Source: Amoebidium appalachense (Eukaryota; Protista; Ichthyosporea). Taken from it: a DNA stretch of 59,449 nucleotides. The stretch lies in assembly GCA_963693365.1 (NCBI GenBank), contig CAVNZM010000010.1:9381326-9440774 (forward strand), read 5' to 3'. Both the position numbers and the translations under genes were made by a program. Below, in pieces: positions 6,052-56,922 of this stretch. The notes below the pieces were generated by a model. That model saw only the letters and a list, made by a program, of their open reading frames with translations, made no database searches and was not told where the DNA came from. Numbering within the stretch: position 1 is the first letter of the stretch; every line of letters starts with the position of its first letter.

Positions 6052-11271
<5,220 letters not shown>

Positions 11272-13344: not shown

Positions 13345-13590
13345 CAGGCCCGGGGGCCCCGGGGACCGGGGGCCCCCCCACCCAGGGAGGCCCGGGGGCC
13401 CCGGGGACCGGGGGGCCCCCCACCCACGGAGGCCCGGGGGGCCACGGGGGCCCAGCGTTAGTTTACCGGGGGGCCACGGGGGCCCGGCGTTAGTTTACCA
13501 GGGGGCCACGGGGGCCTGGCGTTAGTTTACCGGGGGGGCCACGGGGGCCCGGCGTTCAAGTTAGTTTACTACTAACGCCGGGCCCCCGTG
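13345..13590. repeat. GC-rich tandem repeats (~35-bp x2 and ~32-bp x4) ending in an inverted unit
   Basis: GGGGGCCACGGGGGCCCGGCGTTAGTTTACC units followed by ACTAACGCCGGGCCCCCGTG. Confidence 0.9.
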
Positions 13591-14368
13591 CTTTTGACGG
13601 CAGGCACCAGCCTGGCCACCACCTCTGCGTCCATGCCACTCACTAACCCTACCATTTTCACCAGTAGGAAGGGGTACCCCACAAAGTTCTTCCTTGCCTC
13701 GTCCTTGTACCGGCGGTGCCACGACAAGGAAAACTTAAACATGCCCGTCAGCAACTCCAACTGCTCGCACGTGAACCTAGGGAGGGGATGCCCGTACACT
13801 GTCTGTTCATGATATAAGGTACGTGCACGTAGTGCCGTGTGAGCTTGTTCTGCCTCAACACCCTCCTTGCCTGGTCTGCACTCTCTCTGTGTTGCACGCC
13901 CCTGAATGCTGCCACCACCCCCTCCTGCATGTCCCCCATAGACGCATTCAGCCCTTGCACCGACTGCAGCAGCTGCTTGAAGTGGTTAATGTGCCTGTAC
14001 GGCTGAGACCTCTTTCTGTCCCAGAAGGCCGTGCATCCCTCGTACGTCTTCCTCCCCTCACCGTCACTCCCCTCCCACCCCCTCCCGTCGTACACCCAGT
14101 CCTCCTCCTCCTCCTCCCCCTCCCCCCTCCCTCCCCCCTCCTCGTACACGTACTCCTGGTCCCCTCCGTCGTGCTCGTATTCGTCGTGTTCCCCCGTGCA
14201 CGTCTCCCTCTCCTTGCAGGATGCCCACCAACATGCACACGGTGGCTGTGGTTTTGGTTGTGTGGTGGTGGTGTTGCAGTACATGTCATAGAGGAAGGGG
14301 CACAAGTCTAGCAGCTTCTCAGGGTCTGTGGTGTCGGCCACCATACTTAGCAGTGTGTCCTCGTCCAT
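13572..14368 (-). pseudogene. VLTF3-like (poxvirus A2-type) viral late transcription factor, frameshifted near 13800
   Basis: PYRHINHFKQLLQSVQG ... VLRQNKLTRHYVHVPYIMNR / YGHPLPRF...LTGMF...RKNFVGYPFLLVKM...VPAVKS match the recalled VLTF3 pattern Y-x-R-x-NHF...QG...L-x-x-YYEH-x-PYI...RKNFLSY-x-YVL-x-K...PLLKS. Confidence 0.8.
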
Positions 14369-14375
14369 TTTAATT

Positions 14376-14383
14376 TCAATTTT
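14376..14383 (-). promoter_or_regulatory. AAAATTGA motif (Mimivirus early-promoter consensus) just upstream of the VLTF3-like ATG
   Basis: Minus strand reads AAAAAATTGAAATTAAAATG, an AT island in GC-rich DNA. Confidence 0.5.
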
Positions 14384-14831
14384 TTACGTGTGTGTGTGTG
14401 TGTGTGTGTGTGTGGTCTACGGGTGTTGCAAAAAGTGAAGTGTTTGTGTACATGTGTGTGCGCCTTTTATATGTTTTGGTGCCTGCTCTTTCTGGCAAGC
14501 CTCCCACCCTTGTATGCATGTACGGTGGTGGTGTTGGTGTTGTTTCTACCTGTGCCTGCATGTGGTGGTCTGCTGAACGACACGTTTGTGTTTGTGTTTG
14601 CATTAAGTCCTGATTTTAATGGCTGTTGCCCCTCGTGCACACGGTGCACATGGTGTATACCTAAAAACACACTCTTTTTCTTTAAGTTCTTCTTCTGACC
14701 CCCCTGCCCGTGCACATGGTACCCCATTTTTCTATCTTTCAAAGCTAAGTTAACAGACACGTCATATAATTTTCAAATTTACTCTAATGTAACTTCAGGT
14801 GCTTAGACTACGTATGGTCCGCATGCTCTAA

Positions 14832-15215
14832 CTAACCCCCTCCCCTAATCAAAACTGCAGCCACAGTGCCCTCCGGTGCAGCCCACCCAATGGGATAGCT
14901 GCGTACAATACCGTCTGCCGCCTCAAACACCCCCCTCTTGTCGAAGGCACCCGACTGTGTCTTGCGCTGGTCCTTGCTGGCCAGGTGGTAGTTGTGGGGG
15001 ACCCCGGGCACGGGTTCACGGAGCAGCCGGTGGTTGGTGACGCTCACACTCGGCAGCTCGCCGTGCACCAGCCTACAGAGGTTGGGCATGTTGACGGTGT
15101 CGGCTGCACGGCGGGAGAGGGTGATGCCCTTGACCTTGACGTCGGTCTTGCCGTCCGGGGTGCGGTAGGCATACGTCTTGGGGGCCACCCCCACGAACTC
15201 GACGATGGGGGTGGT
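14832..15215 (-). pseudogene. protein-primed family B DNA polymerase, C-terminal fragment
   Basis: PIVEFVGVAPKTYAY (KxY motif), KVKGITL, FDKR; rejoins the 35294-37810 part when the Gypsy element and one GTGGT copy are removed. Confidence 0.9.
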
Positions 15216-15992
15216 TGTAAAGTATCCTCACGGACACTTCAGTGTAAAATGTATGTGTATGAGTGTAAACGGGGTTCACTCTGAACTGGATTTCAGAAGA
15301 TCGATGCGTGCGTTTATATACGGATGGTCGACCCGGACAAGATTACTTGACCAATCACACAACTCCCTAGCCGACCAATCATATTACAGATTAGTACAGG
15401 GCTAGTAATTACTGTGTGTGACTACTTGGTCTCTTGCCGGTTCTAACACTCATATATAATCTTTACTGCTGCATGACTTATGACTTACACAGCCCCGAAA
15501 TATACTCCAAATAAACAGGTACCAGTACTTTTCCTGTTTGTGACTTTGGTTACCAGTTACCTTTCGGAGTGCTGTCTCTCTCACATGTGTAACTGCAGGT
15601 TTACAACGACCACTCATTGCAGCTGGACTTTACCGGGATACCCTCGACATGACTGGTCGAATATGAGACTCCCCAATCACTCACAACCTGCTTGTTAGTT
15701 ATTCGTTCTCTATGGCCGCAGCATTTACGTGTTCCAATCAACACAGAAGAGGCCATAAGTGTCCACTCACGCGAGTCTCACCGTAGTTCGTTTCCAAGTA
15801 ACCGAACATATGTAATTGTATTCGATCATCCGATTGGAAAAGCAGATATCACATTTATGATTGGCTCATTCGTCAGCAAACGCCGACATCTGACTGGATG
15901 AGCCGGCACCGACGAAATGTAAACAAAACAAATAGATCTGAATAGATCTGAATCGATCGATTGACACGAATGCTCGCCGCGGAGACATAACA
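15216..15992 (-). repeat. Gypsy 3' LTR
   Basis: TGTAAAG...ATAACA; no difference from 34517-35293 seen by eye. Confidence 0.96.
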
Positions 15993-16041
15993 ATCCCCCC
16001 CTCAGCAGGAAATCTGAGCTCCGACGAAGAAGAGACAAAGT

Positions 16042-18950
16042 TTAACACATCGATTCAAGTTTCTTTTCCCGCCGTGGGAACAGAACATCGCGCAACTGCC
16101 GTCGTCGTAAAAGACGAGCCGTGCGTGCATCTGTAGCATTTGGTGTCGAGTTAACACTTACCGACTGAGTGACGTCGACCTGTTTGTCTACCCGTGGTGT
16201 TTTTGGATTTCTAGGAACAACAACCTTAGGATGAGAAGGTTGTCTAACTACCCGACGTTCGTATGCTTGGATTAACTCTGGGCACCATAATAAAGACTCT
16301 GGACGCCACTGATTGAAAGCCGTGTCGTAGCCTGCAAATTTGACTCGATAATAAGTGGTTGCATGGCCGTTGACTGTAACTACTTTCTTATCCAAAATTT
16401 TCTCTACCGTGGTGTCCATGCCACCTAACTCTGGAATACCGTTATGCTGGGTGTTAGGACACTGAGAAAACGTCGAAAGAGCACGGAAGGCAAATTCGTG
16501 GTAAGCCTTAATGTCGTCGACGTTATACTGGCGAATATCGTGCTCATTCACCGTATGCCGGAGTTTGTATTCAGTACTACCTATCCGGGCTAACACTATA
16601 TATGGACCCAAGAACCGTGGTCTCCATTTCTTCACGGGGCCACCCTTAGCACGGGTGAAATTCCTAACCAACACCTTACTGCCCACTTTAAAAGTACGGA
16701 GAGGAATGTTAGTGTTAGTGCTGTTAGTAAGAGATTCATGTGCTTGCTCTGTACGTTGCCGTGCCACTTCACGGGCAATGCCATGCAAAACTCGAGCCAA
16801 CACCTCCTCCCTATACTTAGTCCACTCTTCCATACGGAGAGGACCAGAGAAGGCAGGAAGCATACTCACATCTAAGAACTCGGTACACTCCTGACCATGC
16901 ACAAGAAAATACGGAGAAAAACCAGTGATAGCATTAGGTGTGGTACGATAAGCATGCACCACAAAAGGAAGTACACTATCCCAGTCAGCGTGCTCCATAT
17001 CCACATATTTTGCTAAACACGATTGAAACACTGCATGTGCACGTTCAGCAACGCCATTAGCTTGAGGGTGGTAAGCAGACGTATGCAACAATGACACACC
17101 CAACAGTTTACACACCTCACTCATTATTTCAGACAAAAATGAGCTACCCCTATCACTTAACACAGAACGGGGGGGCCAAAACGAAGACAAACATGATGCA
17201 AAAACACACGTGCCAACGTCACTGCATCACTTGAACGAATAGGGACAGTTTCAGTCCAACGTGTAGCTAAATCAGTGAGAGTAACAATATAATGATTACC
17301 CTGCACTGTTTCGGGGAAAGGCCCCATCACATCCATAGCTACCCGTTCAAAAGCCTTAATAAAAGTACCATGATACTGGGGGACCCGACTTCGCATGTGT
17401 GTGGATTGATTGTGAAATGCACATGCATGACATCCCAACACCTTTCTCTCCACATCCTTACTCATGCCAGGCCAATAATAATTCACTTGCACACGTTGAT
17501 ATGTACGGGACACACCTAAATGACCCGCCCACGGAGCATCATGCATGTGTTCAAGCACCATATCAACCAAACGAGGGGGAACCCACAAACGTTGACCTTG
17601 TGGCCCACTTAAATGATAAAGAACACCATCTTGCAACACACATTGGAGAGCACACCTTTTTGTACGATTTTCCCATGTCCGACGTTGGCCTTTGGTGGGT
17701 TTATCCACCGAAAAAACCATATCCCCTGGACGTTGCTCCACTTGACATATCACGTCGTGCAAAAACCTGTCACTGCGTTGTGACGACACCACCTGTTCCT
17801 GAAAAACAGGTGTAGAAAACTGGGAAGGAGAGGTGAACGAATTCGGGGTCCCACTGTGTACCGGGGCCCCTACCTTCACCATACTATCCTTAAGAGAGAC
17901 GATGTCTACTTCAGCAGCCCACACATGCTGATTTGACACGTTGATTGAATCTACTTCAACATTTACTCCATCAAAAGGGTGTGTTTGGGTGAATTTATCA
18001 TACTCGATGTATGCATTTCTACTGAGTGCATCACAATCTTTCATACTTTCACCTTTTGCATAAAAAGCCTTGTAATCAAACGAAGCTAACTCTGCAGCCC
18101 ACCGTTGCATGCGTTCGTTGGTTAGCTTAGTAAGACCTTTCATGGCTAAAGTAGGTTTGTGATCAGAATACACCTCAAACGTCCTACCTACCAAAATATG
18201 TCTCCACTCTTTGGTAATGAAATGATAGATAGCATGACTTTCCCGTTCTGGATTACTGTAACGTCGTTCCGTGGGGGAAAATACTCGACTGCCATATGCA
18301 ACTACTCTATCTACTTTATCCTGTTCTTGATACAGTATGCCACCCTCACTGACTAAACTGGCATCTACCCGAACTCGGAAAATACCTTGTGTGGGGGAGA
18401 AATCGGGGTGAACGAGAACATTATCACTTACCAATACTTCTTTTAACCGTTCAAAAGCTTCTAAAGCTTCAGAGTCCCACAACACGGGGGCTTTTCTGTC
18501 ACCACCTGTCTGCTTAGTAAGAGGGTGAGCAATTTCGGCATACCTCCGTATAAAACGACGGAGGTAATTGGTTAGTCCTAGAAACTGCCTGAGCTGAGTG
18601 ACCGTTTTAGGGTGAGGCCATTCTGTAATAGCCTTGATTTTACTAGGATCAGGAATAACACCATCCTTCGTGATCCTATGACCCAGGAATTTAACATCTT
18701 GCACCCCCACTATGGTCTTTTTACCACTCACTTTCATACCAGCAGCTTCCAACACAGAGAACACTTTTTCACAATTAGAAACTAATTCTTCAAACGTTCT
18801 CCCTTTGACACATGCGTCATCCATATAACACGCCGTATACGATAAACACGGACGCAAGATATCGCGCATAATACGACACAAATTTGCAGGTGCATGCACA
18901 AGACCTTGGGGCATCACAGTAAACTGCCACAACTCACCATCGAATGCAGG
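16042..18950 (-). CDS. Gypsy pol, 3' part: RT - RNase H - integrase - chromodomain (frameshift at G-run ~17170)
   Basis: VMPQGL, CYMDD, FLGLTNY, VDAS, YSDHKP, HDAPWAGHLG, MDVMGP, SDRGSSF, YHPQANG, GPY, VEKILDKK...YRVKFAGY...NQWRPESLL..CPELIQAY. Confidence 0.93.
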
Positions 18951-18957
18951 TTTTTTT

Positions 18958-19047
18958 TCTATGAAAAACTACTCCGGGACGTGTGTTGCCTCTAGGGGGA
19001 CATCCCCTTGGACGAAAGTGAACCTGCAATGGTTGTAAACCACGGCA
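18958..19047. repeat. split direct repeat B2 (90 bp)
   Basis: Matches 19527-19616. Confidence 0.93.
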
Positions 19048-19176
19048 AGCCCCCAGTCATCAATTTATTGATCCGTGAGGTCCATGTGCCCAAAAAACGG
19101 GGGAAGGCTTCGCCCCGTGAAAAAACAGCACGTATGTGTGGATGAATGGGGGTTGTGTGTGGGTGTAGGTGGGTGG

Positions 19177-19526
19177 GTGAAAAGGAATATATAGCTGTAA
19201 GGCTGTGGATGCTAAACACAGAAGATGTGTTTGTAGCTTGCTGATCTGCTAAAAACTGTCGTGCTTATATACCTAAGCCTACCGATCTGAACCAATCAAA
19301 AATCGATCTAGTGATATGTGAAATCTGATCCGAGCCAATCATAACTCGGTCTAGTGATCTGTGGTATCTGATGTTTTGACTGGCTAATAGGTGCCCGTGT
19401 GCGGGCAGCCAACCGCTAACTGCTAAAACACGAAATGAAGCCTACATGGTTATGTTGGTATCGAACACCCATCCTACGTGTTTACCCAGAAAAATATTTA
19501 TGTCAATAATTTCCACAAATAAAACC
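19177..19526. repeat. split direct repeat A2 (350 bp)
   Basis: Matches 30822-31171. Confidence 0.93.
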
Positions 19527-19616
19527 TCTATGAAAAACTACTCCGGGACGTGTGTTGCCTCTAGGGGGACATCCCCTTGGACGAAAGTGAACCTGCAATG
19601 GTTGTAAACCACGGCA
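19527..19616. repeat. split direct repeat B1 (90 bp)
   Basis: Matches 18958-19047; abuts A2. Confidence 0.93.
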
Positions 19617-19644
19617 CGAGAGCAGTATGCTTGCTCCAAAGGTT

Positions 19645-20676
19645 TCACTTAAGAATAGAGGCGAATACACGTGTGGTGGTGGCAGCAATGGAGGCCGGAC
19701 GAAGTCGGGTATAGATCAGGAAGCAGTCGGAGGACCACCGGCCGAGTTGTTTGATCCGGGAGTCGTCGACCCCGGCCTCAGCCAGTGCTGTGGCCCCCCC
19801 GATGCGGAGGCTGTGTCCGGCAAACCGGGAGGGTGAGAGGCCTGCCCGGGAGAGGAGGGCACGGAAATCGGCAGAGAAAGCACTCTTGGTGTAGGGGATG
19901 CCACCGAGACTGAAGAGGGGGTCGTCGGGTTGACCGGACGTTGTATCCAGGAACTGCCGGAGGAGATGGGCTGGGGAGAAGTGGGTGAGGGGCAGGGCAG
20001 CTAGGGTGACGTTGACACCTCGGGCCTGTACATCCGTCTTAGAGGTTGGCAGGTGGAGGGTGGCATGGGACAAAGTACCGGTGGGGGTGTAGCTGAAGGT
20101 CACGTCCTTCCGTTTAACGTGACGGGACGGGTCGAAAGAAGTCAGGGTCTTGGAGGTAAATTCCCCTGAACGGAGGAGACCACAGAAACCGACGATGAGG
20201 GCCGTCCATAGCCGGAGATTGGCCGAGGAGGCCTTGGTGGGGCACTGGCCGTGGAGTAGTTGGAGGTGGGAGGGGAGGAGGGGTTCCCTGGTGGATGAGC
20301 GGGGTCGGATGTTGTGAGAAAGCTGCCATCGGCCTACCCCCCGTAGGAACCAGGCCAGAGACTTGTCGTGGGGGTAGGGAGCAGGGAGGCCCATGTCGAG
20401 GTGGAGCCTGGTGATGGCCGAATTGTAGCCGGTTAAGGAAGAGGCCTGTACCCCTCGTTGGGCACACCAGGCGAGAAAAAGTTGCACGGTGTGTGGGGAG
20501 GCCGGGAGGGAGGACCCGGAGGAGGATTGCAGCCGAGATGCCACACAGAAATCGATGAACACTTTTTGCACCCGGGAGTAAAAGGCCCGAGAGTCGAGGT
20601 TGAGACTCAGGGCCTGGCATTCCTGCAGGGTAGTGGTGGCTCGAAGCAGCTCGGCCGGAGCAAAGTGGGGGGCCAA
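19645..20676 (-). CDS. tyrosine recombinase
   Basis: LLRSGEF, SKTD, GHSLRIGGAT, LGRWSSDCFLIY: R-K-HxxR-W-Y catalytic set. True start uncertain (homopolymer upstream). Confidence 0.95.
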   Translation of the reverse strand: MAPHFAPAELLRATTTLQECQALSLNLDSRAFYSRVQKVFIDFCVASRLQSSSGSSLPASPHTVQLFLAWCAQRGVQASSLTGYNSAITRLHLDMGLPAPYPHDKSLAWFLRGVGRWQLSHNIRPRSSTREPLLPSHLQLLHGQCPTKASSANLRLWTALIVGFCGLLRSGEFTSKTLTSFDPSRHVKRKDVTFSYTPTGTLSHATLHLPTSKTDVQARGVNVTLAALPLTHFSPAHLLRQFLDTTSGQPDDPLFSLGGIPYTKSAFSADFRALLSRAGLSPSRFAGHSLRIGGATALAEAGVDDSRIKQLGRWSSDCFLIYTRLRPASIAATTTRVFASILK

Positions 20677-20707
20677 TCTGCCAGTGTTGCTCCGGAACGG
20701 GAGATCT

Positions 20708-20735
<28 letters not shown>

Positions 20736-20738
<3 letters not shown>

Positions 20739-22330
20739 GCCCAAGGGAAGGGATAGGAACTCGTGGACCCAGGAGGGGAAGGGGCAGGGCTCCGGTTGCA
20801 GGGAAGGTCGGAGTCGTCGGGCCCGGGGAAGTTGGTTACGAGAAATGGCATCGGCCAGATGGTTGAGGGGTCCTGGTAGGTAGGATGCCTGTAACGTAAA
20901 TTGGTATTGCATTTCCATGCGGGTGATGAACCGAATAAGTTTGGCCATCACGGGGTGGGGGGAAGACCGGGAGTGCAGGTCAGACACAGCACCCGTGTTG
21001 TCGCATAAAATACGGACATGGTGGGTGGACCAGGAGGGGGCCCAGAGGGCCACGGCGGCTGCGATGGCCAGGAGTTCGATGACGGAAGAACCGAGTTTAC
21101 CCTCATGAGCATAGAGGGCTTGGGTGGAGGGGGACCAGGGCATGAAGAACCATTGGTCGAGCCAGTGGCCACCTAGACCCACCGATCCGGCAGCATCAGT
21201 GGCCAGGGTGGTGTATGTGGGGGGTGTGATGAGGTGCACCCCATTCCATGATGTGAGGAACTGGTGCCATTCGGCTATGTCGGCCCGGGCGGCAGCAGTC
21301 AGTCGTATGTGGTGGTGGCCGGCAAGGTGTGGGTGGGTCCGGAGAAGGGCCCATAGGCGCTGGGAGAAGGCCCTCCCGGGGGGAACCAGCTGGGCACACC
21401 AGGTGAGTTTGCCGAGGAGGGACTGGAGGTCCCGAATGGTGATGGTGGGCTTTGGGTGGGAAGTGAGGTCGAGTAGGTCCGAGAGCTTGGAAGCCGGGAT
21501 TCGTGCCTCCATGGCGATGGAGTCGAATTCGATACCGATGAAGACGACACGGGTAGCCGGGCCCTGCATCTTGTCTTCGGAGATGGCAATGTGCAGCTCT
21601 CGGCAGAGTTGCAGAAAGGTGGATAGGTGACGTTGGCACTGCTGTTGTGTGGGGGCGACTATAATCCAGTCGTCTACGTAGTGGCGGATGAGGGTAATAC
21701 CGTGCTGGTGTGCCAGCCACTGTTGGGTGGCCGCGATCCGTTCCCAGATGGCTGGGCTAGATTTCAGGCCGAAGGGCAGTCTGGTTTCAACGTAAAAATG
21801 CCCTTGCCATTTGAATGCCATTAAGTGGTGGTCTTCCGGTTGGATGGGCATGTGCCGGAAGGCAGCCAGCACATCTGCCACGGCCATGTAGCAGCCGGGG
21901 CCTGCGTCGAGAATGAGTTGGGTGACATCCCGGGCGCGAATGTACTGAAGTTCGTCGGGGTAGGTGATGCTGTCATTGACACTGCTACCCCGGGGCCAGG
22001 AGAGGTGGTGGATTCGACGGTACTTGGGGGGGTTCCCTTTCTTGGTAACGGCGCCGATGGGGGAGGAACGGTGGACGGGAAATTCGTCAAAGAATTGGGC
22101 CGGGGAGAGGGGGCCGCGCAGGTGGCCGAGGGCGACTTCTTTGGCAATATCCACCGTGATAGCGGCAGCTGCCTCCGGGGTGGTGGGTAGGTTGGGGCCC
22201 ACCCGAGAGGTGGAGGGGCCGCGATAGCCGATGTCGACGCCGAATTCGACATCGTGGAGGAGTTGTGCGGCGAATGGTTGGTCCGGGTAGGAGGCCAGCA
22301 GTTCCCGGAGGCGGGAGGTGTCAATGTGGT
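20736..22330 (-). CDS. DIRS/Ngaro-type reverse transcriptase - RNase H
   Basis: RRIHHLSWP..SVND, ADVLAAFRH, LPFGLKSSP, HYVDDW, TDAAGSVGLGG, ELLAI, CDNTG, NHLADAISR. The frame stays open upstream of 22202; start uncertain. Confidence 0.93.
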
Positions 22331-22420
22331 GCTGGGGCAGCGGGGCGGGCCTCCGGGTCTGAGCCTCGGGGGAAGGGGGTGGTTAGCAAGGGTGGTGTAC
22401 CCTTGGGGAGATCCCGGCAG

Positions 22421-22463
<43 letters not shown>

Positions 22464-22870
22464 CAGGGCCCCGGGGGGTTAGAGTAGGGCAGCTTGGCCC
22501 AAGTGAGGGTTGGCAGGGAGGGCAGCGGGGCCCTGTGCAGGGGAATGTGCCCGAGCACGCGGGGCTGTGGGCGGACACAGCGGTAGAAGAAAGGGGGGGG
22601 GGAGGGAGTGCTAGGTGAGTGTAAGGGGGGGAGGCTCGTGGGATGGGGGGGGGGGGGGGAGTAAAATTATGTGCAGTGGCCAGAATAAACGTCTTTGTAT
22701 AGGGACATTTATTCTTGACGCGCGCGGGCGCCGTAGTTGGCCTGCGAAATTTTGTACTCAGCCCTATTGGCCCGTTCTCCCGAGCTCCGTTTCCCTGTAC
22801 TCGTGTGTCCTAGCTCCGAACCCCTATGTTCTAGCTGTGTGTGTGGGTGTGCGCGTAGACTAGGCATTGT

Positions 22871-23796
22871 TGTTGTAATACGTAGTATTTACATATGGTA
22901 AGATCTTCTCAGTTTGTGTTATGTTTCAGTTCATATGCTTAGTGTAAATGCCACACTCCTATTATGTAAAGTGTAGCATCGATCTCCGATATGCTTGTAT
23001 ACTTGTAATCGTGTTGTATCGGCTTTAATCGTGTATTGTAATATCGATTAGAATATTTATATGTGTGTACACGGATCCACCCACTCAGGGAGAGACGTGT
23101 ACATGTTCGTGTGTACATAAATATCTCTGGTTATAGTTATGCTATTACTATCTTGTTTGTTGATCTGTGCTCTCTTTTCCTTCCTCTTTCTCCTTCCTTA
23201 TTTTCTTTTCTTTCTCTCCTTGTCTTCATGTGTATAATCGTATTTCTTTTCTACTAATATATGTTAGGTAGATTTGTGTTACTTAATACGTGTTCATTGG
23301 ACGGTAACACACTTAGGCTACACTTAGAATAGCATGTGTGTTTAGACTTCATTAATTCACTTTAGTTTTCATGTGTTGCCGGGCTTTAACCAATCATCAA
23401 GGTTAAGTGTGATATGTCTGAGTCTTTGCAGTATGTCATAGGTTAGAACTTCCTTGATGATGACACGAGTTGATCTTAACTGGTGTCTGTGTCCTATCGT
23501 GTACGCCTCCGCGTACCGGATCTCTCTCAAAGCAATTGGTTCTTAGTGATTGGTTTCTATTAGAGATGGATCTGATTTCCGACTGGTCGGAAATCATGTA
23601 TGGATTGGACTTAGAGGAATTTCAGGTATTTATTCGAAGATCAGAATAAATTCAGTTCAGTCGTGTCTAAACATTGATGTCTGTTGTGTACACTGCTCCG
23701 ATCGTTCCGTGTTTTGTTGTTGTGTGTGTCTGTGGTGTTTTCACACTGCACCACTGTGTCTCTGCTTACATCCTAAATACTTATAGAAATTTAACA
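22871..23796 (+). repeat. Copia-1 5' LTR
   Basis: TGTTG...TAACA; one substitution seen versus the 3' LTR (near 23528). Confidence 0.95.
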
Positions 23797-23858
23797 GGTT
23801 ATGCAGCCCTTTTGCACGCTCCCTACACACATCTAGAACTCGCGCTCGTTTTTCAATC

Positions 23859-28270: not shown

Positions 28271-28692
28271 CCCGACCTACTTCAAGAGTGATTTTCTCAT
28301 GTGTACTACTTACTTTATCAACATCATTATATCATATGTATTGCCTTTGTGGGTATGCCCACTTAGGGTTTATATATAAGGTTTGACCTGTACCATCACT
28401 CTACTCTATCTTTCACTGGTTTAAAACCCAGTTAATCAAACACCGCCTATACACGTTATATATATTCGTTGTTTTTGCCCCGGTTCCTTCCCCCCTCCCC
28501 CCCCCTTCCCCCCCCCTTCCCCCCCCCCCTTCCCCCCCCCCCCCCTCCCCCCCCCCTCCCCCCCTCTCCCCCCCCCCCCCCCGGGAAAAGTACACACTTT
28601 AATTTTTTTTTTCCGTTTCTGTTCTCAAGTGGGGAGATTTCACTAGTTCAGTGGGGATATGATAACACAAACTTCAAAGTCTTAAGTGGGGA

Positions 28693-29618
28693 TGTTGTAA
28701 TACGTAGTATTTACATATGGTAAGATCTTCTCAGTTTGTGTTATGTTTCAGTTCATATGCTTAGTGTAAATGCCACACTCCTATTATGTAAAGTGTAGCA
28801 TCGATCTCCGATATGCTTGTATACTTGTAATCGTGTTGTATCGGCTTTAATCGTGTATTGTAATATCGATTAGAATATTTATATGTGTGTACACGGATCC
28901 ACCCACTCAGGGAGAGACGTGTACATGTTCGTGTGTACATAAATATCTCTGGTTATAGTTATGCTATTACTATCTTGTTTGTTGATCTGTGCTCTCTTTT
29001 CCTTCCTCTTTCTCCTTCCTTATTTTCTTTTCTTTCTCTCCTTGTCTTCATGTGTATAATCGTATTTCTTTTCTACTAATATATGTTAGGTAGATTTGTG
29101 TTACTTAATACGTGTTCATTGGACGGTAACACACTTAGGCTACACTTAGAATAGCATGTGTGTTTAGACTTCATTAATTCACTTTAGTTTTCATGTGTTG
29201 CCGGGCTTTAACCAATCATCAAGGTTAAGTGTGATATGTCTGAGTCTTTGCAGTATGTCATAGGTTAGAACTTCCTTGATGATGACACGAGTTGATCTTA
29301 ACTGGTGTCTGTGTCCTATCGTGTACGCCTCCGCGTACCGGATCTCTCTGAAAGCAATTGGTTCTTAGTGATTGGTTTCTATTAGAGATGGATCTGATTT
29401 CCGACTGGTCGGAAATCATGTATGGATTGGACTTAGAGGAATTTCAGGTATTTATTCGAAGATCAGAATAAATTCAGTTCAGTCGTGTCTAAACATTGAT
29501 GTCTGTTGTGTACACTGCTCCGATCGTTCCGTGTTTTGTTGTTGTGTGTGTCTGTGGTGTTTTCACACTGCACCACTGTGTCTCTGCTTACATCCTAAAT
29601 ACTTATAGAAATTTAACA
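28693..29618 (+). repeat. Copia-1 3' LTR
   Basis: Copy of 22871-23796. Confidence 0.95.
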
Positions 29619-30782
29619 ATTGTGCTTGCAGTCTTTGCGGGGGTGTGTGCCAGAGCAGAGCGGGCACACGTGGGAGAAGGGGCAGGGCTGCTTAGCGCAG
29701 GACCGACCGTTAATGTGGAAATTCCTGCAGTGCGTCGCGGGTAGATCCACGGGTCGGGCCGGTTTGGCCGGGCCGGGTTGCGGGCCAGGGCGGTTAGGGG
29801 TGTGACCCCCGCCGGGCTTGTGGGGCGGCTTAAAGCCGTCAAGACCACAGCCGGGCTTGGGGTACATGGGGCAGGCCGCGCTGGGGTGGTCGGGGAAGCC
29901 ACAGCGCTGACATGCGTCCTGGATGAGCAGGGTGGGTGGCAGGAGGAGATCCTGGTGGAGTTGGGCGAGCAGGTTGGGGCACTCGATCGGAGCCCGACCC
30001 TGCTGGTGGGCCACGGTGCGGGCGTATACGTCATAGTTGTGGATCTGGGCCCACGGGTATCGGGTGCTGAGGCGAGTGATGTGCTGAGTCCAAAGTACGT
30101 CTTTGTCCGTGGGGAGGCCGAGGTGGTGCTTGGCGGCCATGTAATGGGTCCAAGCTTGGATCCAAATGACGAGTGAACGCAGGGGAACGGGTTTGTCTTG
30201 GCGAAAAGTCTCGATGCTGCCGTCGTCGGCCATGCGCAGATGCTGACCTTTCTTGGATGGGGCCAGGAGGGCGGCGGGGGTGAACTTATACAGGTCGACG
30301 AAACGATTGGCGCGCAAATCTGCCAGCACATCCGCGGGGGGAAGCGGGAGTGTGCCCGGCTGAATGTCGCCAGTGTTCTCACCTGTGATGGGGGGCGCGG
30401 GCAGGGCAGGCAGGTCAAGGTCAGGGCCGAGATGCAGCCCCGGGGAAACCTCCCCGGGTGTGGAGGGCGCGGCGGGGGGCGCGGGAGGGTCGTGGTTGGT
30501 GAGAGCAGCCAGGACGCCAGCCATCTGGGTGCTGATGGCGGTGAGGGCGGCCAGGACGGCGTCTTGAGAAGTCATCTGCGGGGACGGCGGGGCCTGAGGG
30601 GGGACTTCAGGGGTGGAGGGGAGAGTAGCCGGCGGGTCCGGGTCCGTGGTGGTATGGGCCGCTGGAGGCGCGTCAGTGTCCGCGGGAGCGTTGGTCAGCC
30701 TGTGGCGGAGGTCGCTGCGGGTCAGGCGCTTAGGTGCCGCGGCAGGGGCGGCGGCTGAGGCCTGGCGCTTTTTCGGCGGCAT
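29619..30782 (-). CDS. Ngaro gag-like ORF1 with zinc fingers; last codons (HNA-stop) lie across the Copia insertion at ~22860-22865
   Basis: CQRCGFPDHPSAAC knuckle and CRNFHINGRSCAKQPCPFSHVCPLCSGTHPRKDC. Confidence 0.88.
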
Positions 30783-30821
30783 GCTGACCGGCGTAGGGAA
30801 AGATAGGGAGAATGAAAAGGA

Positions 30822-31171
30822 GTGAAAAGGAATATATAGCTGTAAGGCTGTGGATGCTAAACACAGAAGATGTGTTTGTAGCTTGCTGATCTGCTAAAAA
30901 CTGTCGTGCTTATATACCTAAGCCTACCGATCTGAACCAATCAAAAATCGATCTAGTGATATGTGAAATCTGATCCGAGCCAATCATAACTCGGTCTAGT
31001 GATCTGTGGTATCTGATGTTTTGACTGGCTAATAGGTGCCCGTGTGCGGGCAGCCAACCGCTAACTGCTAAAACACGAAATGAAGCCTACATGGTTATGT
31101 TGGTATCGAACACCCATCCTACGTGTTTACCCAGAAAAATATTTATGTCAATAATTTCCACAAATAAAACC
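30822..31171. repeat. split direct repeat A1
   Basis: Matches 19177-19526. Confidence 0.93.
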
Positions 31172-33054
31172 AAAGCAGTCTTCTCCTTATCCTCTTCCCT
31201 AAGCCGACACTGAAAAAATGCATTTTTCAAATCGAGGACACAGAACCACTTATAGCCATGAAAACTATCAAGTAATTCATCAATACGGGGAAGGGGAAAG
31301 AGATCCTTTTTAGTGACAGAGTTAAGGCCGCGTAGGTCTGTGCACATCCTGTAGGACCTGTCTGGTTTTTTAATTAAAAGTACCGGTGACCGCCACTGAC
31401 TTTTACTAGGCTCTAAAATCTGCATTTCTCGAAATTCACTAATCATTTGCCTTCCTGACTCTAATTTCGATTGCTCCATTCGATACTGAGGCATCACCAC
31501 AGGACTGGCATCACCTGTATCAATTGCCACTGTATATCCCTTCACAAAACCGTGATCTTTTGGATGCCTAAGAAATACATTTTTGACTCGATTTAACATG
31601 GGAAGAATTAATGCACGTTGCTGATCCGTCCAACCTGGATCTACCATACCCCAGGGGAGACTCACTTCACCGGAATCACCCTCCCTGTTACAGTTACTAC
31701 TTGCACCTTCACCTGCACACACTCCGTCTGCTTTACCAATATCATCACTAGAAGGGCCCTTTTCTGTGGATGAGGGATTGACACCTACTGCATCGGACTG
31801 ATGACCAGACACCGTGGTAACCGCAGACACTGAAACACCATCAACCGTAGGCGAGCGACTTCCTGTTGGTGTTGATGTCTCGGGCTGGCCACAAGTTTCC
31901 GGATTACTAGGTTTATCTGAAGGTAGCTCGGGGGTGGGGATAACTATTTCTGCAACAACTGTATCGAAAGGCAGCTGCCCTTCGATATATCCCAATCGCG
32001 TGCCAGCAGGTATTACTAATTCTGAATCAAGATTTCGATTTTCTACTTCGATCATGATTGTTTTATCAGCCGCCACTTTACTATATGAAGGACTCACAAA
32101 TGGAAGTAACCTAGCTGCCGGAACAAAGACACCTATATCTGCCACGACAGCAAATTTGTCTAAGTTCACCCGGACGAATGCACGACTGTGGGGAGGTACA
32201 CAAATTTCGCTGACAGTGTGTGCAGTACTTTGATACCCCTCCGTACCCGTGTGCAAACGTACACTACCACCCTTCTTCAAATGCAACTTATTAGATTCTT
32301 CATCTAACAATTTAACATGTGCCTTTGAAAATGGACGGCCTAAAATCATACTCTGACCCATGTTTGCACAAACAGCAAACGTGACAAATAATGTGTGGGA
32401 ACCAATGGTACATGGGAGAGTGACCCGGCCCACCACATTCAACGATGCATCAGGATTGGCAGTCTTCACACCACTCACTAAGTTATTTGAAAACATTGTA
32501 ACACGTGCACCCATCTTCATTAAATTACAAATAACTTTTTCATGCACACAATTAATGTTTGCACCACCATCTAAAAGAGCATCATGAATTTGAACATCAC
32601 CCAATACCACAGGAACATATAACCGTGCTTCTGGCTGAATTAAAGATGCAAACACTTCCTGTAACACAGAAATTTCCACTTCACTAGTTTCCACACTAGT
32701 CTCTATCACCGACACAGAAATATTGGAAGGGGGGGAGGGGGAGGGGGGTGGGAGGGGGTGGGGGAAGGGGAAAAGGGGGGGGACGGGAGGAAGGGGGGGT
32801 GGGGGTTGTGGGGAAAGGGGGGAAAGGGGGGAACGGGGGGAAGACTTAGCTTCATGCTGATTCTCAACGAGAGAGGGGGTAAATTGCACCACAGCAGTTT
32901 TAACTGACTGTTTTACGGCACCAGGCCGTGAGTGATTTATTGTCTTATTTACTTCAACAGTATCTGTATAACAAGACACGTTGATTTCAGACATTTCACT
33001 ATCACTGCACATAGCCTCAACTGCAATATACTCTACCCCACTCTCAGCGCCCCG
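31172..33054 (-). CDS. Gypsy pol, 5' part: aspartic protease and RT N-terminus
   Basis: LLDGGANINCV, SQWRSPVLLIKKPD, RMCTDLRGLN, PLPRIDELL, LDLKNAFFQ; cut at KTA by the Ngaro element. Confidence 0.92.
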
Positions 33055-34500
33055 TCAACGCCGACGCTCGGCCAAAATTTTAGCCGACGCCTGCTGAGCA
33101 TGATCTTTCCACCTAATACCTTTGGGGGCTGAGGGAAAGGTCTTAGGCAATTTTCGGTTGGGACAATCCCGTTTCTGATGCCCTATCCCAGTACAATGGA
33201 AACAAACTCGTTCTGAAATAGGCACGACTGGTCTCTCACTACCCTGCTGGCTACCGTGCTTGCCGTTTTTCTGATAGGGTGCCGGGCGACGGGGTTGACG
33301 GTCATTTTTGGCCTTACCACCGGCAGCCTGGAAGGCAGCCACCTGAGCCGATAAGCTAGCTATCTGAGCCTGCAGGGCAGCAATCTCCGGAGCACCAATA
33401 CCACTACCGTTGTTACCTGGGGTGGAAACACTATTGACCTGCGCTTTCTTGGCCGCCTGCCGACTAGCGAAACGACCCTCGAGCTTGTTAGTAATTTTCG
33501 ACTGAGCCTCATCAAGCTTGCTATTTGCCTGAGCTATTTCCCACAACTGCGCATCGGCCTCAAACGTATTCCTGTATAAACTACGTTGCATTTGACCGCT
33601 GACGTCGGTGTTCAAACCAGCTAACTCCAGCAGACGGCGAAACGTGTTGGTGTGTGCCGTCACTTGGCCACCAATACTGGCAGCCGTGGCATCCGACGTG
33701 GGAGTGAAACGGAGGGCCCGGATCTGTGTCTCATATGATTCACGCCGAATGTTGGTCAGCCAGTAGTTCTCGATGAAACGCAGCAGCCACTCAGACGCCG
33801 TCAATTCGACTTCGACCTGCAGAATCTCACCCTTGCCCTTGTGCATAGGGCGAGTCGTCTTCAGTGGTGTCCGAGAGGCCAGGTGAAGAAGAGAATCCTC
33901 CGAGCGCACCTCGCCGTCAATGCCGAGGGCACGAACCGGCACCGTCTTGTTGTCGTTTTCAGGATCCATGTAGTCGTCAAGGAGGGTAGCCATCTCCAAC
34001 ACACGAGGATCACCACTTGCCCGGTTCACACTCTGCAGAATCATAACTTGCCACTGGGCCAGGGGAGTGTCGGGGGACAGCTTGGCGATGCGATCGATGA
34101 GACGGTACCATTCAAACACGTTATCAGCCTTGGAGAGCTGAGGAATCTTAAGCTTCTCCATCATAGCCGCAGCCGCAGCACACACTTCAGGAACCTGAAA
34201 AGCCTTGGCCGCAGGGGCGTCGTAGAACACTTCATCCATCACAATGGGATCTTGCCACTCCATCAAACTGGGGGGCAGAGCGTCGAGAAACTCCGGGTCT
34301 ATTTCATCCTGCGGGTCCATAACTTGGCCGCGCCACTGGGTGAACTTGCCGACGGTGACATCCTTGAGCTTGCCGAGGGGGCCAAAAACAAGAGCTTGGG
34401 CGAAGGTTGCACTAAGCCCCGCGACCGGCGAAAAGGGGGGTTCCGGCTTTATGTTGGGGGCGAAAGCAACAGCCGAGACGGAAGTTTTGCAATATAGCAA
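33055..34500 (-). CDS. Gypsy gag (first ATG ~34320)
   Basis: Position after the 5' LTR; CFHCTGIGHQKRDC knuckle. Confidence 0.88.
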   Translation of the reverse strand: MLYCKTSVSAVAFAPNIKPEPPFSPVAGLSATFAQALVFGPLGKLKDVTVGKFTQWRGQVMDPQDEIDPEFLDALPPSLMEWQDPIVMDEVFYDAPAAKAFQVPEVCAAAAAMMEKLKIPQLSKADNVFEWYRLIDRIAKLSPDTPLAQWQVMILQSVNRASGDPRVLEMATLLDDYMDPENDNKTVPVRALGIDGEVRSEDSLLHLASRTPLKTTRPMHKGKGEILQVEVELTASEWLLRFIENYWLTNIRRESYETQIRALRFTPTSDATAASIGGQVTAHTNTFRRLLELAGLNTDVSGQMQRSLYRNTFEADAQLWEIAQANSKLDEAQSKITNKLEGRFASRQAAKKAQVNSVSTPGNNGSGIGAPEIAALQAQIASLSAQVAAFQAAGGKAKNDRQPRRPAPYQKNGKHGSQQGSERPVVPISERVCFHCTGIGHQKRDCPNRKLPKTFPSAPKGIRWKDHAQQASAKILAERRR

Positions 34501-34516
34501 TTGGATTGGTGTAGCT

Positions 34517-35293
34517 TGTAAAGTATCCTCACGGACACTTCAGTGTAAAATGTATGTGTATGAGTGTAAACGGGGTTCACTCTGAACTGGATTTCAGAAG
34601 ATCGATGCGTGCGTTTATATACGGATGGTCGACCCGGACAAGATTACTTGACCAATCACACAACTCCCTAGCCGACCAATCATATTACAGATTAGTACAG
34701 GGCTAGTAATTACTGTGTGTGACTACTTGGTCTCTTGCCGGTTCTAACACTCATATATAATCTTTACTGCTGCATGACTTATGACTTACACAGCCCCGAA
34801 ATATACTCCAAATAAACAGGTACCAGTACTTTTCCTGTTTGTGACTTTGGTTACCAGTTACCTTTCGGAGTGCTGTCTCTCTCACATGTGTAACTGCAGG
34901 TTTACAACGACCACTCATTGCAGCTGGACTTTACCGGGATACCCTCGACATGACTGGTCGAATATGAGACTCCCCAATCACTCACAACCTGCTTGTTAGT
35001 TATTCGTTCTCTATGGCCGCAGCATTTACGTGTTCCAATCAACACAGAAGAGGCCATAAGTGTCCACTCACGCGAGTCTCACCGTAGTTCGTTTCCAAGT
35101 AACCGAACATATGTAATTGTATTCGATCATCCGATTGGAAAAGCAGATATCACATTTATGATTGGCTCATTCGTCAGCAAACGCCGACATCTGACTGGAT
35201 GAGCCGGCACCGACGAAATGTAAACAAAACAAATAGATCTGAATAGATCTGAATCGATCGATTGACACGAATGCTCGCCGCGGAGACATAACA
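34517..35293 (-). repeat. Gypsy 5' LTR
   Basis: Copy of 15216-15992. Confidence 0.96.
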
Positions 35294-37810
35294 GTGGTGG
35301 TCTCGTTCTTCCAGTTGCCCAGCAGGTCGCCGTTGGTGGAGTCGATGTTGTGGCGGAGGTGGGGCACCCTGCTGTCGTAGTGGTACACGATGGAGTCGGT
35401 GTCCATGTACACCACCTGCTGGGGGGACAGGGACCGGAGGGCCCCGTAGAGGTGCAGCCGGGCATGTGCCGTGACGTACGTGCCAATGGCAATGTTGGCA
35501 TAGGAGGGGGGTGGGGCCGTCTCCTTCTTGGGCCGGTACTTGATGGCCACCCTCTGCTCGCCGATGGGCTCGACGTCGAGCACCAGGAGGTTGGGGTTGG
35601 TCACCAGCAGCCTCAGCCGGTCGACGTCGTCGACAAACTCGATGGTGTCCAGCCCAGCCCTCTGCACCAACTTGCCCCAGAGGCTGTTCAGAAACAGCTT
35701 GCTGATGGTACGCAGGGCCGGGTTGGGGTCAAACTCGTCGGCGGTCACCGTAATGCCGTAGTGCTCCTTGAACAGGTGCACGAGGGCAGGAATGTCGGCC
35801 GGGTCGACGGTGGTGCTGGTGAGCTTCACCTTCAGGAACGTCTGCACGTACTTCCGGAAGAGGTTCTTGGTGCGTTTCTTGAAGACTTAGTGCACCACGT
35901 CGTACACGTCGAGTATGGTGTACCCGTCCCGCACGGCCACCTTCAACTTCTCCGTCGTCCACGTGCCCACCAGCGCCCTCTCCTCGTCCGTGTGTGTGCA
36001 CAGTGTGTGCTCACGTACCCTGGGGTTGCCGTCCTCGTCCATGCAGGTGGCCCGGGCCTCCTCCTTGCTGCTGCAGGCCCTGCACAGCACAAAGCCCAGC
36101 TTGTCGTACCCCTGGGCACCCGTCATTCGCACCGGCAGCACCGGAATGAAGAGGTCCTTGGGGGCAGCACCCTCACACGTGCAACACCAAAGTACCCCTT
36201 GGTCCTGGCCTGGGGGGAGCCGGGGGCCATACGGCACGTCTTGTCGAGCCTCTCCTTGAGCACCTGGGGGTCGGTGACGATGGCCGATGGGTGGTCCTCC
36301 GGCTTGATGGGCAGGCAGGTGAACCACTGTGACTTGCCCACCGGCATGTACTTGTCAATCATGACGTACGGGTAGAGGGAGGTGACGTCGACGTACTTGA
36401 GCCCGGCCGCCGGCTGGTCCTCCTCCTTGACCTCGATGTGACGGGTGATCACCTCGGTGCGACCACCAAAGAAGGCATCACGGAACTGCACGGGGCCCGT
36501 GGGCACGGGGGCCACCCTGCCGGTGCCCTCCCTCCGTGCTGCCTGGGTTGCAAGTGCAGCCTTGACCTCGGGGCTCTGCCTCAGCCTGTCCCACCTGCAC
36601 TCCCACATGCTCTGCACCTTGTGCCCCTGGGCACGGATGTAACGCTCGTGGGCCATGGTGCTGTCGTAGGCCAGTCCCTGGCCGGCCTCTTCACCACCCT
36701 CATCGTCAGATCCTCGTGCCTGTTGCAGTCGGGGCACCCATGGAACACACACCCGTGGAAGAAGTAGTAGGTGCACGTGCCGTCGTCGTGGGTGGCCTTG
36801 GCATCGGCCGTGGCCCTGCCGTGGGGGCCGTACCCGGTGGCCACGTGCCGTGCAGCGTCGTCTGGCCCCACCCCCAGGCTGTGGGTGATGTAGTCGATGT
36901 ACTCCTGCTCCTTCTTGCTGCTGTTCACGTTGCCCATGGTCTGGTCACGCATCACGGCCACGTCCTTGGGCATGGCCTGCGTGATCCAGAAGTGCATGGC
37001 GAGGGAAGCAAGGGTGACGCACGTGAAGGGGTCGATGCCCGTCAGCTCCACCAGCTTGGACATGAAGGCCTTGACCACCTGCTGCAGCAGCACCACGTCC
37101 TTGACGCAGTAGTCCTCGCACTGCTGCACAATGTCGTAGCATGTGGCCGCCGGTGCCCCCTCGTGCAGACGTGCCTGCTCCTCGTGCCACCACTGCATGA
37201 AGGCAGTATGCTGCCTGGGCTTCATGTCCTGGGCCCCAAAGTCCTCGGGCCCGGGGAAGGCAATGCGGCCGGCCTTGAAGTTGGCAAACGTGGCTGCACG
37301 GTGGGGGAAGTGGCCCTTGGTCTCCTGGCAGCCCATGGCCTTGCCTGCATCCGACAGTGACATGGTGAGAAAGTTGAGGGTGTCCACGAACGCCAGCTCC
37401 ACCACCGTCGTGCGGCTGCCGTCCCCCCTCTGCCCCCCGTGCCTCCTCTTGTGCCCGGTGCCTGCTGCTGCTTCGCCATGGCCATCACCATGGCCATCAC
37501 CATGGCCATGGCCATCGCCGTCCACGTGCATGGGCTCGGGGCCGGGGGGTGCCGGTGCACCGGCATTCTTGATGTAGTGACGGATACGGCAGGACTTGAT
37601 CTTGCTGTTGGCCATGATGGGGACGTACACATAGTCCTGGCAGCCCACCACCCTCTTGGTCACAAAGTGGAAGTCGAAACCACTACCGTTGTGGCAAAAC
37701 ACCCGGCCGCCGGCATGTGGCGGTGTGTCAAACAGCCACTTCACCACCTTGTCAATAACATGGTGGTGGTCTTCCATCAACACATCCCAGCCGTTCTTGC
37801 CGTCGGCAGA
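35294..37810 (-). pseudogene. Polinton/adintovirus-type protein-primed DNA polymerase B with inserted Vsr-like nuclease; several frameshifts and a stop; N-terminus lost at the Copia-2 LTR
   Basis: HNGSGFDF (ExoII), KGHFPH, YCVKDV (ExoIII), FHGCVFHGCPDC...MWECRW (Vsr-like insert), FFGGRTE, YVDVTSLYPYVM (A), KLFLNSLWGK (B), YMDTDS (C). Confidence 0.92.
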
Positions 37811-37902
37811 TGTTGGAATACGTCGCCATGTATGACAGCAAGAGCCTTGAAGTATGTATGTGTCCTAGCTTGTTTGTATTCGTGTCTGCTTTCCTCCTTT
37901 GT

Positions 37903-37960
<58 letters not shown>

Positions 37961-56382: not shown

Positions 56383-56462
56383 GTAGTGTACGCAGCTACC
56401 CCATTGGGTGGGCTGCACCGGAGGGCACTGTGGCTGCAGTTTTGATTAGGGGAGGGGGTTAG
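56383..56462 (+). pseudogene. last ~26 codons of pPolB (inverted copy)
   Basis: VRSYPIGWAAPEGTVAAVLIRGGG-stop; matches 14832-14911. Confidence 0.85.
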
Positions 56463-56922
56463 TTAGAGCATGCGGACCATACGTAGTCTAAGCACCTGAA
56501 GTTACATTAGAGTAAATTTGAAAATTATATGAGGTGTCTGTTAACTTAGCTTTGAAAGATAGAAAGATGGGGTACCATGTGCACGGGCAGGGGGGTCAGA
56601 AGATGAACTTGAAGAAAAAGAGTGTGTTTTTAGGTATACACCATGTGCACCGTGTGCACGAGGGGAACAGCCATTAAAATCAGGACTTAATGCAAACACA
56701 AACACAAACGTGTCGTTCAGCAGACCACCACATGCAGGCACAGGTAGAAACAACACCAACACCACCACCGTACATGCATACAAGGGTGGGAGGCTTGCCA
56801 GAAAGAGCAGGCACCAAAACATATAAAAGGCGCACACACATGTACACAAACACTTCACTTTTTGCAACACCCGTAGACCACACACACACACACACACACA
56901 CACGTAAAAAATTAAAATTAAA

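What the first reader, a model, noticed from the sequence alone, without database searches (positions are those of the whole stretch)
13345..37810. Endogenous element pairing a Polinton-type protein-primed PolB with a giant-virus hallmark gene (VLTF3-like)
Seen: removing the Gypsy insertion at its GTGGT TSD rejoins one pPolB gene, followed ~460 bp later on the same strand by a VLTF3-like gene and a GC repeat array. Known: VLTF3 is a core Nucleocytoviricota gene, and those viruses typically use nucleic-acid-primed PolB; pPolB is typical of Polintons, adintoviruses and linear plasmids. Inference: relic of a small virus or Polinton-like element mixing both gene pools. Capsid, ATPase and integrase genes are not in this window, so the element type is unresolved.
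Basis: partly seen in the sequence, partly recalled or inferred. Interest (0 to 1): 0.8.

Follow-up and report, generated by a model that had tools for sequence, protein, structure and literature searches.

The report
Broken adintovirus-type relic carrying VLTF3
A broken, transposon-riddled copy of a repeated virus-like DNA element has a protein-primed DNA polymerase gene next to a giant-virus-type transcription factor gene; the pairing is real but was already described for the integrated 'adintoviruses' of the protist Amoebidium, which is the likely host.

Summary
A Gypsy element (identical 777-bp LTRs, GTGGT duplication) splits a protein-primed PolB gene, and contigs from other runs show the empty site. 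A VLTF3-like gene starts 463 bp downstream on the same strand; an intact relative (P0005, 47-48% identical, Pfam Pox_VLTF3 E 2e-13) confirms it.

Corrections: both genes are pseudogenes. The polymerase has three further breaks and has lost its 5' end at a Copia LTR. VLTF3 is frameshifted and cut at its 3' end. The GC array is fused at that cut and is not shown to belong to the element.

The pairing is not new. Sarre et al. 2024 describe Amoebidium 'adintoviruses' with VLTF3, PolB, Dam and capsid genes. The window's strong CGC/GCG depletion fits Amoebidium's methylation pattern, so the host is inferred, not proven. Capsid, ATPase, integrase and terminal repeats are absent from the window, so family membership is untested.

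One detail not found in my searches: this VLTF3 and P0005 lack the four-cysteine motif seen in 13 of 13 giant-virus-type VLTF3s aligned. Five look-ups found no earlier scan finding with this gene pair.

The parts
36673..37810 (-). pPolB piece A: exonuclease II/III region and VSR-like insertion (FHGCxxHGC); 5' end of the gene missing
   Evidence: Pfam PF03175 E 3.5e-16; motifs; cut by Copia LTR at 37811
36160..36672 (-). pPolB piece B with polymerase motif A; frame changes at both ends
   Evidence: Pfam PF03175 E 1.6e-7; tblastn frames
35299..36159 (-). pPolB pieces C and D with motifs B and C; a stop near 35887
   Evidence: Pfam PF03175 E 3.6e-6; motifs and stop
35294..35298 (+). Target-site duplication GTGGT, right copy
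15216..35293 (-). Chromodomain Gypsy element inserted in pPolB, itself holding a DIRS/Ngaro-type element and a Copia element
   Evidence: identical LTRs; Pfam RT, RNase H, integrase, chromo, tyrosine recombinase, RVT_2
15211..15215 (+). Target-site duplication GTGGT, left copy
14832..15215 (-). pPolB C-terminal piece with KxY motif and stop codon
   Evidence: local pPolB profile E 5.9e-10; blastp 37-44% to relatives
14369..14831 (.). 463-bp spacer between pPolB and VLTF3
   Evidence: crossed in part by contigs of other runs (table 8)
13590..14368 (-). VLTF3-like pseudogene: frame break near 13800, 3' end cut near 13590, four-cysteine motif absent
   Evidence: collinear match to P0005; independent giant-virus profile; Atlas 0.93 to Pox_VLTF3 clusters; alignment A4
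13346..13590 (.). GC-rich array (about 2.5 x 42 bp, then about 3.8 x 32 bp) ending in an inverted copy of its unit, fused to the cut VLTF3 end; link to the element not shown
   Evidence: other copies diverge at 13589
37811..38704 (+). Copia LTR at which the element is truncated; no matching target-site duplication at the partner LTR (44931-45832)
   Evidence: flanks GCAGA vs GCAAG; a DIRS-type RT fragment, not pPolB, follows 45833
56383..59449 (+). Inverted local duplicate of 11895-14911 (last ~80 bp of pPolB, spacer, VLTF3 with the same break, array); not an independent insertion
   Evidence: 96.5% identity; 5 differences in 780 bp of VLTF3

Best explanation
This is a dead, truncated copy of a repeated Polinton-type DNA element, likely one of the VLTF3-carrying 'adintoviruses' described in the ichthyosporean protist Amoebidium. 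Shown: the pPolB and VLTF3 genes are adjacent and co-oriented, both are broken here, and related copies at about 85-99% identity exist. Inferred: the intact element (about 30 kb in the paper) replicates a linear genome with the protein-primed polymerase, integrates into host chromosomes, and encodes capsid proteins. VLTF3 was likely taken once from a giant virus and likely serves as a late-gene activator. This copy then decayed: small indels, a Gypsy insertion that itself took a DIRS-type and a Copia insertion, loss of everything upstream at a Copia LTR (likely recombination between two different Copia copies), a fold-back junction cutting VLTF3, and a local inverted duplication.
For: pPolB domains and motifs. 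VLTF3 identity by P0005, by a profile built without P0005, by the Atlas and by fold search of the P0005 model. Empty Gypsy site, indels at the window's breaks, and continuation past both truncation points in contigs of other runs. CGC/GCG is depleted in the pPolB (27 seen vs 82 expected, z -9.7) and in 7 of 9 regions tested; ratio 0.29 vs median 1.15, minimum 0.63, in 37 of 65 metagenomic pPolB ORFs with enough sites. Amoebidium preferentially methylates CGC/GCG and is about 50% transposons (PMC11244446 section 6). That paper describes elements with VLTF3, Dam, minor and major capsid and PolB, some complete and some degenerating. Distant polymerase relatives sit near an A32 ATPase in 9 of 12 loci sampled.
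Against: No capsid, ATPase, integrase or terminal repeat was found in the window (the queries were distant relatives), and no Dam hit appeared among the window ORFs scanned. No Amoebidium adintovirus sequence was available to compare. The host rests on composition alone; 8 of 8 window proteins were not in the collection by exact look-up. No single listed contig spans from the pPolB stop to the VLTF3 start. The polymerase tree left the window's piece unplaced on a long branch. Two of nine regions (the Penelope-like ORF and the coiled-coil gene) show no CGC/GCG depletion.
Confidence: 0.78

Rival explanations
1. A capsid-less, self-synthesizing element (pPolB plus VLTF3 and few other genes) that spreads as a transposon or linear plasmid and borrows capsids, if any, from another virus.
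For: No virion gene in the window. Adintovirus-like PolBs occur in elements without obvious virion proteins in non-animal eukaryotes (PMC8502044 passage).
Against: The copy is cut at both ends, and other copies continue past both cuts, so the absence is uninformative. A capsid-bearing family with this pair is published.
Confidence: 0.08
2. The same kind of element but in another host, or a separate VLTF3-bearing Polinton/PLV lineage such as the Zephyr clusters VC123/VC126 or coral polintoviruses.
For: VLTF3 is reported in those groups. The host is not proven. The tree is unresolved.
Against: The CGC/GCG-specific depletion matches the context published for Amoebidium. The preprint found no endogenous Zephyr examples.
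Confidence: 0.1
3. Chance neighbours: a VLTF3 scrap from an integrated giant virus lying beside an unrelated Polinton polymerase.
For: The region is heavily rearranged. None of 92 pPolB loci carried a VLTF3 and none of 22 VLTF3 loci a pPolB, so the pair is uncommon among distant relatives.
Against: Same strand, 463 bp apart, similar GC3 (0.78-0.92) and the same CGC depletion. Contigs cross the pPolB stop into the spacer and the spacer into VLTF3. This VLTF3 is about 47% identical to P0005 but only 24-39% to giant-virus VLTF3s and lacks their cysteine motif.
Confidence: 0.04

Closest known systems
Amoebidium adintoviruses (Sarre et al. 2024, PMC11244446)
   Same: Endogenous, multi-copy, PolB plus VLTF3, some truncated and degenerating; host with CGC/GCG-biased methylation and many transposons.
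   Different: This copy shows no Dam, capsid genes or terminal repeats (cut at both ends). Sequence-level membership could not be tested, and their figure of gene order could not be viewed.
Polintons/Mavericks (Polintoviricetes) with VSR-bearing pPolB, e.g. mollusc and marine nematode pPolB2 (10.1101/2023.08.22.554363)
   Same: Protein-primed PolB with an HGC-motif insertion at the position shared with P0001-P0003, one of them from Mytilus.
   Different: Only 26-38% identity. Most Polintons lack VLTF3. The 'VSR' label for this motif is recalled; Pfam did not confirm it on the window's piece.
VLTF3-bearing PLVs (Zephyr VC123/VC126) and coral polintoviruses
   Same: A small Polinton-like genome with VLTF3; the Zephyr group includes pPolB-bearing members.
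   Different: The Zephyr group has no known endogenous members. Whether VLTF3 and pPolB occur in the same genomes was not stated in the passages read.
Mriyaviricetes (PMC11253617)
   Same: Small viruses with VLTF3.
   Different: Their conserved set is MCP, ATPase, VLTF2, VLTF3 and RuvC; a pPolB is not in the passages read, and none of the other genes was seen here.
Nucleocytoviricota VLTF3 (poxvirus A2L family)
   Same: Same conserved helical core; fold search returns VLTF3s from Megaviridae, Tetraselmis virus 1 and Clandestinovirus.
   Different: The four-cysteine motif before the core is absent in the window's gene and in P0005.

Membership tests
Amoebidium adintovirus | Family B DNA polymerase of adintovirus/Polinton type | tested here: met
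   PF03175 hits and motifs; closest named relative is a Mytilus pPolB
Amoebidium adintovirus | VLTF3 gene in the same element | tested here: met
   463 bp downstream, same strand; identity
Amoebidium adintovirus | Major and minor capsid genes, Dam methyltransferase | not testable with these tools
   The copy is truncated at both ends; no genome is held; no capsid-like hit among 1,296 ORFs of distant relatives
Amoebidium adintovirus | Terminal repeats, about 30 kb length | not testable with these tools
   Ends lost; the GC array is not shown to be a terminus
Amoebidium adintovirus | Host is Amoebidium | tested here: inconclusive
   CGC/GCG depletion fits; no host gene or named homologue
Amoebidium adintovirus | Clusters with the published PolB and VLTF3 sequences | not testable with these tools
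Polinton/Maverick (Polintoviricetes) | Protein-primed PolB | tested here: met
Polinton/Maverick (Polintoviricetes) | RVE integrase, A32 ATPase, protease, capsid proteins, TIRs | tested here: inconclusive
   Not in the window, but the copy is truncated; the integrase hits in the window belong to the retrotransposons
Nucleocytoviricota giant endogenous viral element | Nucleic-acid-primed PolB, D5 primase, NCLDV capsid, long gene-dense tract | tested here: not met
   The polymerase is of the protein-primed family; the 1,296 ORFs, which include those of 22 giant-virus-type VLTF3 loci, hit only pPolB, VLTF3 and retroelement stretches
Mriyaviricetes | VLTF2, RuvC, NCLDV-like MCP and ATPase | tested here: inconclusive
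   None seen in a truncated copy; no Mriyavirus queries were run; a pPolB argues against
VLTF3 family (PF04947) | Profile match above Pfam cut-off | tested here: met
   Met by the intact relative P0005 (50.9 bits vs cut-off 25); the window's separate halves fall below it but align to P0005 at 47-48%
VLTF3 family (PF04947) | Four-cysteine motif before the core (shared by giant-virus rows; outside the Pfam profile) | tested here: not met
   Present in 13 of 13 giant-virus-type rows, absent in the window's gene and P0005

The most novel reading that the evidence does not exclude
This Polinton-type lineage has rebuilt a captured giant-virus late factor by deleting its zinc-ribbon-like motif. The cyclin/TFIIB-like core that remains either drives the element's own late genes with host RNA polymerase II, or acts as a decoy that jams late transcription of a co-infecting giant virus, making the element a virophage-like defender with a stolen, disarmed transcription factor.
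Probability: 0.15. Interest if true: 0.6.

Novelty: already known. Interest (0 to 1): 0.22.

Why it matters
As a gene pair it matters little, because pPolB with VLTF3 is published for Amoebidium adintoviruses and VLTF3 is reported in other Polinton-like groups. It is a reminder that VLTF3 alone does not mark a giant-virus insertion, although one 2024 paper calls it undetected outside that phylum. The locus is a clean example of an endogenous virus destroyed by three nested, very recent retrotransposon insertions. The missing cysteine motif gives a testable question about what a Polinton does with a giant-virus late factor.

Tried and rejected
No genome is held for the window.

Close-relative scans found nothing: viral contigs with the pPolB piece, alignment A1 and P0005; metagenomes with the pPolB piece; phages with P0005. 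The word-based protein search with the VLTF3 5' half gave no hit, P0005 found only itself, and the Atlas gave no usable hit for the 5' half. Three of the four hits (P0004, P0006, P0007) are repeat proteins without a VLTF3 match and were dropped. No RNA holder was listed. PDB sequence search with P0005: nothing under E 0.1. VIA-align gave only Z 5-7 matches, many of them cyclin-box proteins (Orc6, Rb pocket, cyclins, TFIIB), too weak to name a function. The pPolB tree (61 rows, piece D only) did not place the window's sequence.

Rejected or left unsupported: (1) The GC array as the element's terminal repeat: other copies diverge there, and its 20-mer has no match in viral contigs. (2) The 3-kb inverted repeat 11895-14911 / 56383-59449 as terminal inverted repeats: it begins inside the pPolB coding end and adjoins a 5-kb direct duplicate. 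(3) The coiled-coil gene at 12262-13106 as part of the element: no CGC depletion, no Pfam match. (4) The AAAATTGA just upstream of VLTF3 as a giant-virus early promoter (motif recalled): 1 match vs 1.8 expected, and it is altered in the duplicate. (5) The joint 13816-14859 in one X14 contig has only 30 letters on its short side and is a weak hint of linkage at best. Summed contig depths were not used as copy numbers.
Full report
Observation. The window is eukaryotic-looking, rich in simple repeats and retrotransposons. Two identical 777-bp LTRs at 15216-15992 and 34517-35293 are flanked by GTGGT on both outer sides. Between them lie Gypsy gag, RT, RNase H, integrase and chromodomain on the minus strand, interrupted by a tyrosine-recombinase retroelement, which is itself interrupted by a Copia element. 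On both sides of the Gypsy lie pieces of one protein-primed family B polymerase. Pfam PF03175 hits 36584-37810, 36126-36944 and 35290-35883, and a local profile hits 14835-15227. ExoII, ExoIII, motifs A, B, C and KxY occur in order, and the frames flanking the insertion are in register. Contigs of public runs show the empty site: loose ends run from one side to the other in X1, X14 and X15 and in X9 and X14. A 593-letter X14 contig is listed on both sides, overlapping by the five duplicated letters.

State of the polymerase. It is a pseudogene even without the Gypsy: the frame changes near 36.67 kb and 36.16 kb, and there is a stop near 35.89 kb. Contigs of other copies differ by small indels at these same places in 3 of 4, 3 of 4 and 4 of 4 runs, so the breaks are not shared by the whole family. 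The gene's 5' part is missing. A Copia LTR begins at 37811, its partner LTR ends at 45832, the flanks do not match, and what follows is a DIRS-type RT fragment. Contigs in X1 and X9 continue past 37807 into other sequence. Recombination between two different Copia copies is the likely cause (inferred); an assembly error is not excluded.

VLTF3. The ORF starting 463 bp after the polymerase stop is broken near 13.80 kb. Alone, the 3' half gives Pfam Pox_VLTF3 only at E 0.012, but Atlas hits at 0.93 are VLTF3 clusters. The full-library search returned four proteins. One, P0005 (281 aa), is a VLTF3 above Pfam's cut-off and matches both halves collinearly at 47% and 48%. A profile built only from 22 giant-virus-type loci hits the halves at adjacent profile positions 208-285 and 285-339. 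The model of P0005 (mean pLDDT 71.5) retrieves viral VLTF3s first. The window's gene also lacks roughly the last 30 residues of P0005. At about 13590 it is fused to an inverted copy of the GC array's unit, while contigs in X1 and X2 run on into other sequence there. The array is therefore a rearrangement junction in this copy, not a demonstrated terminus. In alignment A4, 13 of 13 giant-virus-type rows carry two cysteine pairs just before the conserved core; the window's gene and P0005 have one cysteine and a gap. Against over-reading this: only two sequences show it, that region is low-confidence in the model, and the window's N-terminal part has other cysteines. One search (listing only) showed no paper on this point; the supplement figures of Sarre et al. 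could not be viewed and may bear on it.

Linkage and copy number. Hundreds to thousands of short variant contigs at 85-99+% identity lie on these stretches in X1 and X2 (the stretches include LTRs), so the family is repeated. Listed contigs cross from the pPolB stop into the spacer (X2 14579-14861; X14 14608-14888) and from the spacer into VLTF3 (X14 14267-14544), but none listed spans both genes. The second VLTF3 in the window (56.9-57.7 kb) is part of a local inverted duplication with the same break and is not independent. Among distant relatives the pair is uncommon: 0 of 92 pPolB loci had a VLTF3 hit (best E 0.047, no Pfam match) and 0 of 22 VLTF3 loci had a pPolB. Many of these loci are short and some are duplicates. 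Of 12 of the 92 pPolB loci annotated (81 of 90 long ORFs plus one short one), 9 had an A32 ATPase and 2 an RVE integrase.

Host. No genome is held. CG sites in CGC/GCG context are strongly under-represented in the pPolB (27 vs 82, z -9.7), in the pPolB-end/VLTF3 stretch (z -4.0) and in the five retrotransposon regions (z -3.4 to -12.5), but not in the Penelope-like ORF or the coiled-coil gene. CGC/GCG is by far the rarest trinucleotide (0.38; next 0.88). In 37 of 65 metagenomic pPolB ORFs with enough sites, the median ratio is 1.15 and the lowest 0.63, against 0.29 here. Amoebidium appalachense methylates CGC/GCG at about 70% against about 20% for other CGs and is half transposons (PMC11244446, section 6 read whole). 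Loss of methylated sites by deamination or selection would give this pattern (inferred). I take an Amoebidium-like host as likely, not proven.

Comparison with what is known. Sarre et al. 2024 (passages; supplement legends) describe compact methylated regions with VLTF3, Dam, minor and major capsid and PolB closest to adintoviruses. [quoted passage not shown] A 2026 preprint (10.64898/2026.06.19.733378; passages) reports VLTF3 in about 30% of two PLV clusters. PMC11131425 (passage) reports it in coral polintoviruses, citing Krupovic and Koonin 2016 (not read). PMC8502044 (passages) lists a VLTF3-like gene in a figure key for non-animal MELD viruses. Also seen as passages only: 10.1101/2023.08.22.554363, 10.64898/2026.05.21.726589, PMC8715426, PMC12344493, PMC5294986.

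How it likely works. Shown: the two genes, their order, their breaks and the nested insertions. Inferred from the family: protein-primed replication of a linear genome, integration, capsid formation, and silencing by methylation. Inferred more weakly: VLTF3 activates late genes. Its core resembles cyclin-box folds such as TFIIB only at Z 5-7, and the role of a zinc ribbon in docking on RNA polymerase is recalled from TFIIB, not tested here. This copy itself can do nothing.

Verdict. The feature is real and correctly identified, but it is most likely a degenerate member of a described family. Membership features beyond the two genes could not be tested. Novelty: already known. Interest 0.22.

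Noticed in passing
window 15216-35293: Three-level nest: Gypsy (LTRs 100% identical) holds a tyrosine-recombinase retroelement with split direct repeats (350 bp at 19177/30822 and 90 bp at 18958/19527; Ngaro-type layout, label recalled), which holds a Copia (LTRs 99.9% identical). All look very recent.
   Followed up: partly
window 51155-59449: Direct duplicate of 6102-11271 followed immediately by an inverted duplicate of 11895-14911; real segmental duplication with inversion or a haplotype/assembly effect.
   Followed up: partly
window 58164-59081 and 12262-13106: Gene with coiled-coil A-K-D-E-V-V-A-type repeats, open in the second copy and frameshifted in the first; repeated in other runs, no Pfam match, no CGC depletion.
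   Followed up: partly
window 57701-57745: Perfect 20-bp-arm, 5-base-loop inverted repeat at the array/VLTF3 junction; the first copy has 6 extra bases in it. Direct plus inverted subterminal units recall CACTA/Plavaka-type ends (recalled, untested); a junction beginning CAC also lies at 11272.
   Followed up: partly
window 1-4153: Penelope-like element with an N-terminal GIY-YIG nuclease before the reverse transcriptase and an upstream proline-rich coiled-coil ORF; lacks the CGC depletion of the other elements, which may mean recent arrival.
   Followed up: no
window 13330 and 22761: The same 10-letter CCAAT-containing word occurs just before the GC array and near the inner repeat of the DIRS-type element.
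   Followed up: no
L047, L071, L073: pPolB-bearing PLV-like contigs with Tet/JBP dioxygenase and glycosyltransferase genes right after the polymerase, suggesting DNA base modification.
   Followed up: no
P0005: Intact VLTF3 lacking the four-cysteine motif, on a 17.8-kb contig that could not be read; a singleton among 5.8 billion clusters by word search.
   Followed up: partly
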